From assembly GCF_003334385.1 (NCBI RefSeq), contig NZ_QOWN01000031.1: 54,847 nt of DNA; one strand, 5' to 3'. The notes under the pieces were generated by a model. The model did no database searches. It was given only the letters and a program-made list of their open reading frames with translations, and was not told the DNA's origin. Shown here piece by piece: positions 9,069-54,847 of this stretch; position 1 is the stretch's first letter, and each line of letters begins with the position of its first letter. Source of the stretch: Escherichia coli. GTDB taxonomy: Bacteria > Pseudomonadota > Gammaproteobacteria > Enterobacterales > Enterobacteriaceae. The position numbers and the translations under genes are program-made.

Positions 9069-9845
9069 ATGTTACGTTTCTCTGCTAATTTATCGATGTT
9101 ATTTGGAGAATATGATTTTCTCGCCCGTTTTGAGAAAGCTGCGCAGTGTGGTTTTCGCGGCGTTGAATTTATGTTTCCTTATGACTACGACATTGAAGAA
9201 TTAAAACATGTGCTGGCGAGTAATAAACTCGAACATACGCTGCACAATTTACCGGCGGGTGACTGGGCGGCGGGGGAGCGCGGTATTGTCTGTATTCCTG
9301 GCCGTGAAGAAGAGTTTCGGGATGGCGTAGCAGCAGCGATTCGTTATGCCCGTGCGCTGGGTAATAAAAAAATTAACTGTCTGGTCGGTAAAACGCCGGC
9401 TGGTTTCAGCAGTGAACAGATTCACGCAACGCTTGTAGAAAACCTGCGTTATGCCGCGAATATGCTGATGAAAGAAGATATTTTATTACTGATTGAACCT
9501 ATTAACCATTTTGATATTCCTGGTTTCCATCTCACCGGAACTCGGCAGGCGCTGAAATTGATTGATGATGTTGGTTGCTGCAATTTGAAAATTCAGTATG
9601 ACATTTATCATATGCAGCGGATGGAAGGTGAATTAACCAACACCATGACTCAGTGGGCTGATAAAATTGGTCACCTGCAAATTGCCGATAATCCGCATCG
9701 CGGCGAACCGGGAACCGGAGAAATTAATTATGATTATCTCTTTAAGGTAATCGAAAATTCTGACTACAACGGTTGGGTTGGGTGTGAATATAAACCCCAA
9801 ACCACCACGGAAGCCGGTTTACGCTGGATGGATCCGTACCGTTAA
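9069..9845 (+). CDS. hyi: Hydroxypyruvate isomerase
   Basis: 258-aa ORF; synteny gcl-hyi-glxR. Confidence 0.85.
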   Translation: MLRFSANLSMLFGEYDFLARFEKAAQCGFRGVEFMFPYDYDIEELKHVLASNKLEHTLHNLPAGDWAAGERGIVCIPGREEEFRDGVAAAIRYARALGNKKINCLVGKTPAGFSSEQIHATLVENLRYAANMLMKEDILLLIEPINHFDIPGFHLTGTRQALKLIDDVGCCNLKIQYDIYHMQRMEGELTNTMTQWADKIGHLQIADNPHRGEPGTGEINYDYLFKVIENSDYNGWVGCEYKPQTTTEAGLRWMDPYR

Positions 9846-16404: not shown

Positions 16405-16560
16405 AAGCGGATGCGATTTATATCGCATAAGAGTGCAGTACTCATGCCGGATGCGGCATGAGTACCATATCCTTCCTGAAAATCGCGCAAATTCTATATA
16501 TTGCAGAGATCATGTAGGCCTGATAAGCGAAGCGCATCAGGCAATGTTACAAAAAAAGCC
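16405..16560. repeat. REP/palindromic-unit cluster between convergent glxK and allE
   Basis: Palindromes gtactcatgccggatgcggcatgagtac and gcctgataagcgaagcgcatcaggc, plus hairpin gccacggtataaaccgtggc. Confidence 0.6.
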
Positions 16561-16619
16561 ACGGTATAAACCGTGGCAAAATCCAACATAGCTAAAAATA
16601 ATCAGGCGAGTGGTATGAC

Positions 16620-38097: not shown

Positions 38098-38174
38098 GCG
38101 CCCTTAGCTCAGTTGGATAGAGCAACGACCTTCTAAGTCGTGGGCCGCAGGTTCGAATCCTGCAGGGCGCGCCA
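38098..38174 (+). tRNA. argU: tRNA-Arg (anticodon UCU)
   Basis: 77-nt cloverleaf sequence gcgcccttagctcagttggatagagcaacgaccttctaagtcgtgggccgcaggttcgaatcctgcagggcgcgcca, anticodon loop cuUCUaa, encoded CCA end. Confidence 0.95.
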
Positions 38175-43719: not shown

Positions 43720-44583
43720 TCATTTCGCATCTACAATAAATAACCTGTTTATCTGGCCTTTTTTAACAGTAGCCTTTGCGGTTATAGTGAATACTGCAGA
43801 TGGATCACCTTTGGTTGATATATATGCACTAAGAGCTCTAATATACGGGTTATTCTTCTTTCCTGCAGCTGGATCGCTAATTTCAGCAGTGATTCTCTTT
43901 TTTGAGTCATCACCATCTAAAATTATTTTAGCTGTCATATTTTGTGCATCAAATTCTGTAAGAAAAGCACGATACTCACGAAGACCGAGAACTTCATCAT
44001 CATCAAGCCTATCAATTTCAGCTTTATCTCTCTCGTTAACTTTTAGAAGGCAGCCGTCAACATTTGTTGCAACACTTATCTGATCGCAAGTATTACCAAT
44101 AGGTGATACTGCCTGCCTTACAGAGGGGCGAAGCTCTACAGCCATTCGGTCAATCAAAGAGATCAACTTATCAATGGTTCCAGCATCCTTGTTTCCCAGT
44201 GCCTCTATGGCCTTTTCAAGTGACTGCTGCAAAGCTTTCATTTCATCTTTCTTGTTAGAATTTCTCGCAAAAATATATTGTAGTATTGCGCCAAGTATAG
44301 TTGCGGCGATCCCCGAGAACAACTGGTTCTGAGTGGCGAAGTTAAGAACTGCTTCAAGAGTAAAGCAGTTAGCTTTTGCTTCGCGTGCGTAAACCTTAAC
44401 TTCCTGATAATTAATGTATTTACTATATTTTTGTGTAACAGAGAAAGAAGCTGCTGTTGAGAGAACTTTAGAAAAACCCTTTAGGGATTCTCCTAGGCAG
44501 TTCAAATCTATTTCATGATTTAAAGCATCTTTTCCGTCATACCTAAGAGAGATTTTTATATCCTGTAAAGCGTCACAATCCAT
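43720..44583 (-). CDS. Unknown-function 287-aa protein at the rexAB-equivalent immunity-region locus; candidate lysogen-expressed anti-phage/superinfection-exclusion protein
   Basis: Directly downstream of and co-oriented with the cI-like repressor; visibly AT-rich versus flanks; central hydrophobic segment [19 protein letters not shown]; followed by an intrinsic terminator; no motif I can assign. Confidence 0.55.
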
Positions 44584-45743: not shown

Positions 45744-46283
45744 ATGCAACCACTTACATACCAACAGACTAGCGGATTTAGCCCGACTGCGGTGATAAAT
45801 CGTTCTCAAACAAAACAGGTGCCAGGCCACGAAAAAATCCGTGATGCCGTCCGCGCCTGGTCGGCTGTAGATAATCAGGATGTCGTTGCCACACTCATTG
45901 TGAATGAGTATCGGGAGCAGGGCGGCGGCACCATCGATTTCCCTGATGATGTCAGCCGTGCACGCCAGAAGCTGTTCCGCTTCCTCGATAACAAATTCGA
46001 TTCTGAAAAATACCGAAATAACGTGCGTGAACTGACCCCGGCAATTCTGGCGGTACTACCGCTGGAATATCGCGGTTACCTGGTTGAGCAGGATAGCTTC
46101 ATGGCTAGGTTGGCTGAAATGGAAAAGGAACTCAGTGAGGCAAAACAGGCTGTCATTCTCAACGCACCACGCCACCAGAAACTGAAGGAAATTAGTGAAG
46201 GTATTGTGTCGATGTTTCGTGTGGACCCAGATCTGGCTGGTCCATTGATGGCGATGGTTACTACCATGCTGGGGGCGATATGA
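45744..46283 (+). CDS. Protein at the cII position (possibly YdaT-like regulatory protein)
   Basis: 179-aa ORF between cro and O; family assignment uncertain. Confidence 0.35.
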   Translation: MQPLTYQQTSGFSPTAVINRSQTKQVPGHEKIRDAVRAWSAVDNQDVVATLIVNEYREQGGGTIDFPDDVSRARQKLFRFLDNKFDSEKYRNNVRELTPAILAVLPLEYRGYLVEQDSFMARLAEMEKELSEAKQAVILNAPRHQKLKEISEGIVSMFRVDPDLAGPLMAMVTTMLGAI

Positions 46284-46369
46284 CAGGTTCAGAAATGGCG
46301 AAAGCCGGTCTGCTGGAACAGAACCGACTTTCAGGTGCAAATCGTAACACACTCATTGCGGGAGGAATT

Positions 46370-47299
46370 ATGGCAAACACTGCTGAGATATTCAATTTTC
46401 CAGTGCCGGATGCGGCACAAAAGGAGCCGCGCGTGGCAGATCTCGATGATGGTTATACGCGCATTGCAAATGAGTTGCTGGAAGCTGTAATGCTGGCCGG
46501 ATTAACACAGCACCAGCTTCTGGTCTTCCTGGCTGTCATGCGCAAAACATATGGCTTTAATAAAAAACTGGATTGGGTGAGCAACGAGCAACTTTCCGAG
46601 TTGACCGGGATATTGCCGCACAAGTGTTCTGCTGCAAAAAGTGTTCTGGTAAAGCGTGGGATTTTTATTCAGAGCGGGCGGAATATCGGCATTAATAATG
46701 TGGTCAGTGAATGGTCAACATTACCCGAATCAGGTAAGAAAAATAAAGTTTACCTGAAAGAGGTAAATTTACCTGAATCAGGTAAGAAAAGTTTACCCAA
46801 ATCAGGTAAAGACGTTTACCCGAATCAGGTAAACACAAAAGACAAACTAACAAAAGACAATATAAAACCTTTTTCGTCCGAGAATTCTGGCGAATCCTCT
46901 GACCAGCCAGAAAACGATCTTCCTGTGGTGAAACCGGATGCTGCAATTCAGAGCGGCAGCAAGTGGGGGACAGCAGAAGACCTGACCGCCGCAGAGTGGA
47001 TGTTTGACATGGTGAAGACCATCGCGCCATCAGCCAGAAAACCGAATTTTGCAGGGTGGGCTAACGATATCCGCCTGATGCGTGAACGTGACGGACGTAA
47101 CCACCGCGACATGTGTGTACTGTTCCGCTGGGCATGCCAGGACAACTTCTGGTCCGGTAACGTGCTGAGTCCGGCCAAACTCCGCGACAAGTGGACCCAG
47201 CTCGAAATCAACCGTAACAAGCAACAGGCAGGCATGATAGCCAGCAAACCAAAACTCGACCTGACAAACACTGACTGGATTTACGGGGTGGATTTATGA
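46370..47299 (+). CDS. Replication initiator protein O
   Basis: Start taken at MANTAEIFNFPVPD; N-terminal region resembles lambda O (VADLDDGYTRIANELLEA...LAVMRKTYGFNK); contains iterons internally. Confidence 0.8.
   Translation: MANTAEIFNFPVPDAAQKEPRVADLDDGYTRIANELLEAVMLAGLTQHQLLVFLAVMRKTYGFNKKLDWVSNEQLSELTGILPHKCSAAKSVLVKRGIFIQSGRNIGINNVVSEWSTLPESGKKNKVYLKEVNLPESGKKSLPKSGKDVYPNQVNTKDKLTKDNIKPFSSENSGESSDQPENDLPVVKPDAAIQSGSKWGTAEDLTAAEWMFDMVKTIAPSARKPNFAGWANDIRLMRERDGRNHRDMCVLFRWACQDNFWSGNVLSPAKLRDKWTQLEINRNKQQAGMIASKPKLDLTNTDWIYGVDL
46721..46833 (+). repeat. Replication origin iterons inside the O gene
   Basis: Five copies of about 19 bp TTTACC(C/T)(G/A)AATCAGGTAA(G/A), followed by an A-rich stretch (acaaaagacaaactaacaaaagacaatataaaacc). 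Confidence 0.75.
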
Positions 47300-47997
47300 A
47301 AAACATCGCCGCACAGATGGTTAACTTTGACCGTGAGCAGATGCGTCGGATCGCCAACAACATGCCGGAACAGTACGACGAAAAGCCGCAGGTACAGCAG
47401 GTAGCGCAGATCATCAACGGTGTGTTCAGCCAGTTACTGGCAACTTTCCCGGCGAGCCTGGCTAACCGTGACCAGAATGAACTGAACGAAATCCGCCGCC
47501 AGTGGGTTCTGGCTTTCCGGGAAAATGGGATCACCACGATGGAACAGGTTAACGCTGGAATGCGCGTAGCCCGTCGGCAGAATCGACCATTCCTGCCATC
47601 ACCCGGGCAGTTTGTTGCCTGGTGCCGGGAAGAAGCATCCGTTACCGCCGGGCTGCCAAACGCCAGCGAGCTGGTTGATATGGTTTACGAGTATTGCCGG
47701 AAGCGTGGCCTGTATCCGGACGCAGAGTCTTATCCATGGAAATCAAACGCGCACTACTGGTTGGTTACCAACCTGTACCAGAACATGCGGGCCAATGCGC
47801 TGACTGACGCGGAATTACGGCGTAAAGCTGCCGATGAGCTGACCTGTATGACCGCGCGAATTAACCGTGGTGAGGCGATACCTGAACCAGTAAAACAACT
47901 TCCTGTCATGGGCGGTAGACCTTTAAATCGTGCACAGGCTTTGGCGAAGATCGCAGAAATCAAAGCTAAGTTCGGACTGAAAGGAGCAAGTGTATGA
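47296..47997 (+). CDS. Replication protein P (DnaB helicase loader)
   Basis: 233-aa translation matches lambda P as I recall it (MKNIAAQMVNFDREQMRRIANNMPEQYDEKPQVQQVAQIINGVFSQLLATFPASLANRD). Confidence 0.85.
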   Translation: MKNIAAQMVNFDREQMRRIANNMPEQYDEKPQVQQVAQIINGVFSQLLATFPASLANRDQNELNEIRRQWVLAFRENGITTMEQVNAGMRVARRQNRPFLPSPGQFVAWCREEASVTAGLPNASELVDMVYEYCRKRGLYPDAESYPWKSNAHYWLVTNLYQNMRANALTDAELRRKAADELTCMTARINRGEAIPEPVKQLPVMGGRPLNRAQALAKIAEIKAKFGLKGASV

Positions 47998-54638: not shown

Positions 54639-54847
54639 ATGAAATCCATGGATAAGTTAACAACGGGTGTCGCCTATGGCACCTCAGCAGGTAGTGCCGG
54701 TTACTGGTTTTTACAGCTGCTCGATAAAGTCACGCCCTCACAGTGGGCAGCAATAGGTGTGCTGGGTAGCCTGGTATTTGGCCTGCTGACGTACCTGACA
54801 AACCTTTATTTCAAGATTAAAGAAGATAAGCGCAAGGCTGCGAGAGG
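54639..54847 (+). CDS. essD: Phage holin (3' partial at the window end)
   Basis: [68 protein letters not shown] matches K-12 EssD as I recall it; the ORF runs off the window. Confidence 0.75.

What the first reader, a model, noticed from the sequence alone, without database searches (positions are those of the whole stretch)
46721..46833. Origin iterons embedded in the O gene
Five direct repeats of about 19 bp (TTTACCYRAATCAGGTAAR, each internally palindromic) followed by an A-rich stretch are the sequence-level signature of a lambda-type ori. The iteron sequence differs from lambda ori as I recall it, implying a distinct O specificity while P is lambda-like, which is a chimeric replication module.
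Basis: partly seen in the sequence, partly recalled or inferred. Interest (0 to 1): 0.3.

Follow-up and report, generated by a model that had tools for sequence, protein, structure and literature searches.

The report
Lambdoid prophage origin with non-lambda iterons
This is the ordinary replication origin of a lambda-like prophage: five binding sites for the phage's own initiator protein sit inside that protein's gene. This version is found in nearly half of complete E. coli genomes, so it is real but not new.

Summary
Five copies of TTACCYRAAWSAGGTAA lie at 46721-46832, where 0.09 matches are expected by chance. An A-rich tract follows them (24 of 38 bases are A). The repeats sit in the middle of a lambda O-type initiator gene, and the last four are spaced 19/24/23 bp, against 20/24/23 in lambda. 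They are read in two reading frames, so the repeat is a DNA feature, not a protein one.

The interpretation also holds. The iteron arms (TTACC/GGTAA) differ from lambda's (TCCCTC/GAGGGA). The O N-terminal DNA-binding domain is 48% identical to lambda O. The O C-terminal part and P are each 98% identical to lambda. The switch lies inside O, at about 46863-46879, just right of the A-rich tract.

This is routine lambdoid mosaicism. A Klebsiella phage pairs the same iterons and N-domain with a different O C-terminal part and an AAA ATPase gene in place of P. The allele occurs in 2453 of 5426 complete E. coli genomes and in 16 deposited phage genomes, where the gene is annotated as O. O binding and origin firing are inferred by homology, not shown. 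Interest is low.

The parts
46721..46737 (+). Iteron 1 (TTACCCGAATCAGGTAA), the extra upstream copy, 29 bp before iteron 2
   Evidence: There is no lambda counterpart in the alignment. The equivalent copy in Klebsiella phage ST11-VIM1phi8.2 is degenerate (TTACCCATAAAAGGTAC).
46750..46766 (+). Iteron 2 (TTACCTGAAAGAGGTAA), with a divergent centre
   Evidence: It aligns with lambda iteron 1.
46769..46785 (+). Iteron 3 (TTACCTGAATCAGGTAA), the most symmetric copy (16 of 17 positions)
   Evidence: It aligns with lambda iteron 2.
46793..46809 (+). Iteron 4 (TTACCCAAATCAGGTAA)
   Evidence: It aligns with lambda iteron 3.
46816..46832 (+). Iteron 5 (TTACCCGAATCAGGTAA), next to the A-rich tract
   Evidence: It aligns with lambda iteron 4.
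46833..46870 (+). A-rich tract (24 A in 38 nt), the presumed DNA-unwinding element. It contains CACAAAAGACA and ACAAAAGA, which are invariant across six lambdoid origins.
   Evidence: The unwinding role is inferred from lambda (papers read).
46873..46894 (+). Right-hand segment TTCGTCCGAGAATTCTGGCGAA, an imperfect palindrome that differs at one base from the lambda sequence at the same position. The lambda-type DNA starts here.
   Evidence: That this segment is part of ori in lambda is from my own memory. It was not tested.
46370..47299 (+). O-type replication initiator gene of 309 aa. Public records mostly annotate it from the upstream ATG at 46280 (339 aa).
   Evidence: Pfam Phage_rep_O at residues 21-115, E=1.2e-33. 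phrog_277 'replication initiation O-like', E=1.5e-163. The lambda O alignment starts at the Met at 46370, a GGAGGA lies 5 nt upstream, and the Klebsiella and SEN34 O genes start at this position.
46430..46714 (+). Coding region of the O N-terminal Phage_rep_O domain, the presumed iteron-binding domain
   Evidence: The N-domain (alignment columns 1-117) is 48% identical to lambda and 81% identical to Klebsiella phage ST11-VIM1phi8.2, which has the same iterons.
47296..47997 (+). P-type helicase loader gene, 233 aa
   Evidence: 229 of 233 residues identical to lambda P. phrog_109 'P-like helicase loader', E=1e-98.

Best explanation
The array is the replication origin of a lambdoid prophage inserted at the tRNA-Arg(TCT) gene of an E. 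coli chromosome. By analogy with lambda, dimers of the prophage's own O protein bind each palindromic iteron through the N-terminal Phage_rep_O domain. The bound array then strains and opens the A-rich tract on its right. The lambda-type C-terminal part of O recruits the P-DnaB complex, which loads the host helicase. The iterons and the O N-domain form one specificity cassette that differs from lambda's. The C-terminal part of O and P form a second, lambda-type cassette. The two are joined at about 46863-46879. What is shown here is the anatomy, the homology, the joint, and the DNA-level constraint on the iterons. O binding, unwinding and origin firing are inferred.
For: - Repeats are far above chance, and each is an inverted repeat.
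- Position and register match lambda: the array aligns with annotated lambda iterons 1-4, with spacing 19/24/23 against 20/24/23, followed by CACAAAAGACA..ACAAAAGA, which is invariant in lambda, P22, HK97, SEN34 and a Klebsiella phage.
- The surrounding gene is an O-type initiator, followed by a P gene 98% identical to lambda P.
- The repeat units are read in two frames (0,2,0,0,2), giving LPESGK or VYLKEVN/VYPNQVN. The repetition is therefore kept at the DNA level.
- Against Klebsiella phage ST11-VIM1phi8.2, iterons 2-5 are 65/68 identical, while the N-domain coding DNA is 273/346 identical (Fisher p=0.0005) and its third codon positions are 67/115 identical.
- N-domain and C-part relationships disagree. 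N-domain: Klebsiella phage 81%, lambda 48%. C-part: lambda 98%, Klebsiella phage 18%. The joint was mapped base by base.
- The same O allele (97-98% DNA identity) is in 16 deposited phage genomes. The identical five-iteron array was checked directly in phage Perceval and in 69 of 80 IMG/VR loci.
- Published work on lambda and Stx phages supports the mechanism: O dimers bind each iteron, an O-some forms, the AT-rich region unwinds, and the N-terminal part of O binds DNA while the C-terminal part binds P (PMC7466680, PMC6022878). Different lambdoid initiators carry different iterons inside their own genes (PMC8022706).
Against: - There is no direct evidence of O binding or origin firing for this iteron type. 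No solved structure matches the protein, and no paper in the searchable library contains the iteron sequence.
- Among 43 closely related haplotypes, the iterons are no less polymorphic than the flanking coding DNA (7/85 against 42/426 variable sites, p=0.84). The constraint shows up only at greater divergence.
- The prophage sits at the DLP12 site, where prophages are often defective (my own knowledge). The window ends before the structural genes, so the viability of this particular copy is unknown.
Confidence: 0.9

Rival explanations
1. The repeats are a protein-level repeat in the flexible linker of O (LPESGK-like units) and have no role as DNA sites.
For: The array encodes a low-complexity, lysine- and serine-rich stretch between the two conserved parts of O. 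Three of the five units translate as LP[EK]SGK.
Against: Two of the five units are read in another frame and give unrelated peptides (VYLKEVN, VYPNQVN). Only one of the four spacings is a multiple of 3. Each unit is a DNA palindrome, which a peptide repeat does not need. The units are conserved at the nucleotide level beyond the level of the folded domain's coding DNA. The array is in register with the experimentally established lambda iterons.
Confidence: 0.02
2. The site is a genuine origin by descent, but in this chromosome it belongs to a decaying, non-inducible prophage and no longer fires.
For: The prophage occupies the tRNA-Arg/intD site used by the defective prophage DLP12 of K-12 (the DLP12 link is from my own knowledge). 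The window ends at 54847, inside the prophage. In two IMG/VR relatives, slippage within the iteron array truncates O, so decay at this locus does happen.
Against: In this window O (309 aa), P (233 aa), the cI-like repressor, the cro-like gene and the CII-like gene are all intact ORFs. The iteron array is identical to the majority form found in 69 of 80 IMG/VR loci.
Confidence: 0.07
3. The sequence difference from lambda iterons does not change function, and lambda O and this O recognise each other's origins. There would then be no separate specificity.
For: Unit length (about 19 bp), spacing and the A-rich tract are nearly the same as in lambda. Specificity was not tested here.
Against: The arm sequences share almost nothing (TTACC against TCCCTC), and the N-domain is 48% identical. 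The Klebsiella phage with an 81% identical N-domain keeps the same iterons, while P22 (59%), SEN34 (61%), HK97 (43%) and lambda (48%) have different ones. From my own memory, the classical lambda-phi80 and lambda-82 hybrid genetics showed that origin recognition is type-specific and determined by the N-terminal half of O.
Confidence: 0.02

Closest known systems
Bacteriophage lambda ori and its O/P replication module
   Same: - Iterons lie inside the O gene, each about 19 bp with dyad symmetry.
- Spacing of the four iterons nearest the A-rich tract is 19/24/23 against 20/24/23.
- The conserved A-rich tract is present.
- The right-hand TTCGTC..GGCGAA segment differs at one base.
- The O C-terminal part is 98% identical and P is 98% identical.
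   Different: - Five iterons rather than four.
- Arms are TTACC/GGTAA rather than TCCCTC/GAGGGA.
- The O N-terminal domain is only 48% identical.
O gene of Klebsiella phage ST11-VIM1phi8.2 (MK448234.1)
   Same: It has the same iteron core (TTACCCGAATCAGGTAA three times, plus two variants), an N-domain 81% identical, and the same A-rich motif.
   Different: The O C-terminal part is unrelated (18% identity). The downstream gene is annotated as an AAA family ATPase, not a P-type loader. The same specificity cassette is therefore joined to a different partner cassette.
Salmonella phage P22 gene 18 and its internal ori
   Same: It has four iterons inside the initiator gene with TTACC-like and GGTAAA-like arms, the same A-rich motif, and an N-domain 59% identical. 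A published description says P22 has four repeats of about 20 bp that differ from lambda's (PMC8022706).
   Different: The iterons are not the same: at up to 4 mismatches, only one site in the P22 locus matches the core. The arms appear to sit about 2 bp closer together (by eye). The C-terminal part is unrelated (16%), and the partner gene 12 is annotated as similar to the DnaB helicase, not a P-type loader.
Stx phages 933W and P27 (six-iteron lambda-type origins)
   Same: They are lambdoid origins with more than four iterons. The extra copies lie on the side away from the AT-rich region and lengthen O. Those copies are bound weakly but are required for plasmid replication (PMC7466680).
   Different: Stx iterons are of the lambda sequence type. 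Here the extra copy belongs to a different specificity type, and whether it is needed is unknown.
Phage 82 ori. This is a lead from memory only, from the work of Moore, Denniston and Blattner (1981, Gene 14:91) and Grosschedl and Hobom (1979).
   Same: As I recall, phage 82 pairs a non-lambda iteron type with a lambda-compatible P function, which is the arrangement seen here. The prophage also carries DLP12-type late-region genes (rusA, quuD), which I recall as being closely related to those of phage 82.
   Different: Not verifiable here. No phage 82 origin sequence turned up among the phage-collection hits, and the papers are not held.

Membership tests
Lambda-type (O/P) phage replication origin located inside the initiator gene | Array of at least 3-4 direct repeats of about 19 bp, each with internal dyad symmetry, inside the initiator's coding sequence | tested here: met
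   Five units at 46721-46832, arms perfectly complementary, 0.09 matches expected by chance. They lie inside the O ORF.
Lambda-type (O/P) phage replication origin located inside the initiator gene | Repeat spacing and register comparable to lambda, not locked to the reading frame | tested here: met
   19/24/23 against lambda 20/24/23. Frames are 0,2,0,0,2. The array aligns column for column with the annotated lambda iterons.
Lambda-type (O/P) phage replication origin located inside the initiator gene | A+T-rich, A-strand-biased tract immediately beside the last iteron | tested here: met
   46833-46870 has 24 A in 38 nt. The motif CACAAAAGACA..ACAAAAGA is invariant across six origins.
Lambda-type (O/P) phage replication origin located inside the initiator gene | Initiator with an N-terminal Phage_rep_O domain | tested here: met
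   PF04492 at residues 21-115, E=1.2e-33. phrog_277, E=1.5e-163.
Lambda-type (O/P) phage replication origin located inside the initiator gene | Lambda-type O C-terminal domain with a P-type helicase loader gene immediately downstream | tested here: met
   O C-part 98% and P 98% identical to lambda.
Lambda-type (O/P) phage replication origin located inside the initiator gene | The initiator binds the iterons and replication starts here | not testable with these tools
   This needs footprinting, gel shifts or replication assays. The only indirect support is nucleotide-level conservation of the iterons and the presence of the allele in deposited phage genomes.
Lambda ori specificity type (origins recognised by lambda O itself, as in lambda, 434, 21 and Stx phages) | Iterons of the ATCCCTCAAAACGAGGGA type | tested here: not met
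   No such units are present. The arms are TTACC/GGTAA. Megablast similarity to phages whose origin is annotated as lambda-type (434 and 21) begins only at window 46823-46833 (query 544-554), right of the iterons.
P22 gene 18 ori specificity type | Same iteron sequence and a closely related N-domain | tested here: not met
   The arms are related but only one P22 site comes within 4 mismatches of the core. The N-domain is 59% identical.
Phage 82 ori specificity type | Identity of the iterons to the published phage 82 origin | not testable with these tools
   No phage 82 origin sequence or paper was reachable.

The most novel reading that the evidence does not exclude
The TTACC-type iteron and N-domain cassette may be an O specificity class that has never been characterised by experiment, although it is very common in E. 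coli. The invariant A-rich motif at its right edge (CACAAAAGACA..ACAAAAGACAAT) may also act as the shared stretch of homology where recombination swaps specificity cassettes between different helicase-recruiting partners: lambda P-type here, an AAA ATPase in a Klebsiella phage. The origin itself would then be the module boundary.
Probability: 0.35. Interest if true: 0.25.

Novelty: already known. Interest (0 to 1): 0.1.

Why it matters
It matters little beyond annotation. In the public records examined, this allele is annotated only as 'replication protein O' or 'replication protein', with no rep_origin or iteron features. The exact iteron coordinates and consensus given here could be transferred to thousands of E. 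coli prophages. They mark a replication-specificity (incompatibility) type that differs from lambda's. The six-origin comparison gives a clean worked example of how lambdoid replication modules recombine inside the initiator gene, next to the origin.

Tried and rejected
- Polymorphism test. I compared variable sites in the iterons with the flanking coding DNA across 43 closely related IMG/VR haplotypes. There was no difference (7/85 against 42/426, p=0.84), because divergence is too shallow. Constraint appeared only against the roughly 80%-identical Klebsiella phage.
- Solved structures. A sequence search with O found nothing at E<=0.01.
- Literature search. Full-text search for the iteron strings found no papers.
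- Phage 82. Its origin sequence was not among the phage-collection hits. Two guessed accessions next to the phage 434 and phage 21 records do not exist in the collection. Zahn and Blattner 1985 (PMC554704) is not held. The phage 82 link therefore remains a recollection.
- RNA families. The Rfam scan at gathering thresholds gave three matches elsewhere in the window and none in the origin region. At E<=1 over 46150-46950 it gave only hits far below threshold. The array is not a known structured RNA.
- Related loci. Searching viral contigs with the N-domain returned only near-identical copies at 98-100%. This was useful for prevalence and copy-number variants but not for covariation between the protein and its sites.
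- Single outlying match. The iteron-like site at 9734-9750 on the - strand (2 mismatches) is isolated and consistent with chance.

Full report
**Observation.** The sequence at 46721-46832 contains five direct copies of a 17-nt core, TTACCYRAAWSAGGTAA. They start at 46721, 46750, 46769, 46793 and 46816. A pattern search with up to two mismatches finds nine matches in the 54.8-kb window. Eight of them are in this array, because the units are palindromic and also match on the minus strand. Dinucleotide-preserving shuffles give 0.09 matches on average and never more than one. Each unit has perfectly complementary 5-bp arms (TTACC/GGTAA) around a 7-bp centre. The tract that follows, 46833-46870, has 24 A in 38 bases, GC near 0.33 and a strong positive AT skew. 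Only two details of the consensus differ: copy 1 starts ATTACC, and copy 2 has a divergent centre.

**Context.** The array lies inside an ORF at 46280-47299 whose product has a Pfam Phage_rep_O domain (E=1.2e-33) and matches PHROG 277, 'replication initiation O-like' (E=1.5e-163).
- The next gene, 47296-47997, is 229/233 identical to lambda P.
- Upstream are a CII-like gene, a cro-like gene and a divergently transcribed S24-peptidase repressor.
- The whole unit is a lambdoid prophage inserted next to tRNA-Arg(TCT) at 38098-38174 in an E. coli chromosome. This is the same layout as the intD...rusA...quuD prophage of strain SCU-104, whose copy of the O N-terminal half is 100% identical.

**Comparison with lambda and other lambdoid origins.** In the lambda record the four ori iterons are annotated inside O with start-to-start spacing 20/24/23. 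Here the four iterons nearest the A-rich tract are spaced 19/24/23, and an extra copy lies 29 bp upstream. An alignment of six origins places the iterons in the same columns. The six are this window, lambda, P22, HK97, Salmonella phage SEN34 and Klebsiella phage ST11-VIM1phi8.2. The alignment also shows an invariant CACAAAAGACA...ACAAAAGA motif immediately to their right. The iteron sequences themselves differ by type:

| Origin | Iteron arms |
|---|---|
| lambda | TCCCTC/GAGGGA |
| this window and the Klebsiella phage | TTACC/GGTAA |
| P22 | a related TTACC/CGGTAA form |
| HK97 and SEN34 | TTAGC/GCTAA |

**The repeat is a DNA signal, not a peptide repeat.**
- The units fall in two reading frames (0,2,0,0,2) and translate as LPESGK, VYLKEVN, LPESGK, LPKSGK and VYPNQVN.
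- Against the Klebsiella phage, iterons 2-5 are 65/68 identical, while the N-domain coding DNA is 273/346 identical (p=0.0005) and its third codon positions are 67/115 identical.
- Among very close relatives this constraint is not detectable.

**Chimerism.** The N-terminal domain of O is 48% identical to lambda O and 81% identical to the Klebsiella phage protein. The C-terminal part is 98% identical to lambda O and 18% identical to the Klebsiella one. Base-by-base alignment puts the end of the Klebsiella-like similarity at 46862. The start of near-identity to lambda is at about 46880, with two mismatches in the next 120 bases. The joint therefore lies just right of the A-rich tract. Two cassettes result:
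- N-domain, iterons and A-rich tract travel together as a specificity cassette.
- The right-hand segment, the O C-domain and P travel together as a partner cassette.

The other origins show that these cassettes combine freely. SEN34 pairs TTAGC-type iterons with a lambda-type C-part and P. P22 and HK97 pair their iterons with a DnaB-like helicase gene. The Klebsiella phage pairs the TTACC cassette with an AAA ATPase gene. The published view is the same: the N-terminal part of O binds DNA, the C-terminal part binds P, and different lambdoid initiators recognise different iterons inside their own genes (PMC6022878, PMC8022706, PMC7466680).

**Mechanism.** By homology with lambda, O dimers bind each iteron, the assembled O-some distorts the DNA and opens the adjacent A-rich tract, and the O C-domain recruits P-DnaB (papers read). 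Anatomy, homology, the joint and sequence constraint are shown here. Binding, unwinding and firing are inferred. The separate specificity from lambda is also inferred. It rests on the unrelated arm sequences, the diverged N-domain, and the fact that the only compared phage with the same iterons has the closest N-domain (81%).

**Prevalence and novelty.**
- The N-terminal half with its iterons occurs in 2453 of 5426 complete E. coli genomes, nearly all at 95% identity or more.
- The full O gene is 97-98% identical in 16 deposited phage genomes, including Perceval, 4A7, Lambda_4C10, 1W, 3W, Turner and several PhiR phages. All annotate it as O.
- At least 589 IMG/VR stretches encode a relative. 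Of the 80 best loci, 76 have five iterons with the same spacing, and 69 have exactly the same five sequences.
- The exact protein is in NCBI, in a 90%-identity cluster of 7825 members.

No record examined annotates the iterons of this allele, and no searchable paper contains their sequence. I recall that phage 82 is the classical case of a non-lambda origin working with a lambda-compatible P, but I could not retrieve its sequence to compare. The kind of element and its modular chimerism are textbook, so I rate it already known and of low interest.

**Rivals.** Three alternatives were considered:
- A pure peptide repeat is excluded by the frame analysis.
- A vestigial origin in a decaying prophage cannot be excluded for this copy, but all early genes are intact and the array is the majority form.
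- Cross-recognition by lambda O is unlikely given the arm sequences, but it was not tested.

Noticed in passing
window 46280-46369: The O ORF is usually annotated from the ATG at 46280 (339 aa), overlapping the stop of the upstream gene. Homology to lambda O starts at the Met at 46370, a GGAGGA lies 5 nt upstream of that ATG, and the Klebsiella and SEN34 O genes start at the equivalent position. The 309-aa form is probably the real protein. Both forms exist in NCBI.
   Followed up: partly
window 46300-46395, minus strand: There may be an oop-like antisense RNA. A promoter-like site on the minus strand (TTGAAT-17-CATAAT with a TG, 46395..46367) overlaps the start of O, as lambda's pO does. A strong hairpin follows on the minus strand at about 46332-46300 (108-nt fold z=-2.1). 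No clear T-run follows it and there is no Rfam match.
   Followed up: partly
window 45744-46283 (+): The gene in the cII position encodes a 179-aa protein. PHROGs calls it a CII-like activator (phrog_163, E=3.9e-67), and RefSeq calls it 'toxin YdaT domain-containing protein'. It is nearly twice the length of lambda CII (294-bp gene in the lambda record).
   Followed up: no
window 43720-44583 (-): A 287-aa gene of unknown function lies just downstream of the cI-like repressor gene, on the same strand. This is where I recall lambda carrying rexAB. It matches phrog_5147 (unknown function, E=1.5e-178) and has a weak PADLOC hit to the candidate defence protein PDC-S42 (E=1.5e-4). It may be a prophage-encoded defence or exclusion gene.
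   Followed up: partly
L037 1852-2006 and L012 1852-1940 (IMG/VR relatives): These are copy-number variants of the iteron array. L037 has seven iterons through a 43-bp duplication of units 2-3. L012 has four through a 23-bp deletion that removes one unit. Both changes shift the frame and truncate O, at 149 and 169 aa. Slippage between iterons therefore occurs, and only in-frame changes could survive in a working phage.
   Followed up: yes
window 38098-38174 and 16479-16613: The prophage abuts tRNA-Arg(TCT), the same site as in strain SCU-104, where an integrase annotated intD lies immediately beside the tRNA. The left 38 kb of the window is host chromosome, with matches to the enterobacterial sRNAs STnc480 and ES036 at about 16.5 kb.
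   Followed up: no
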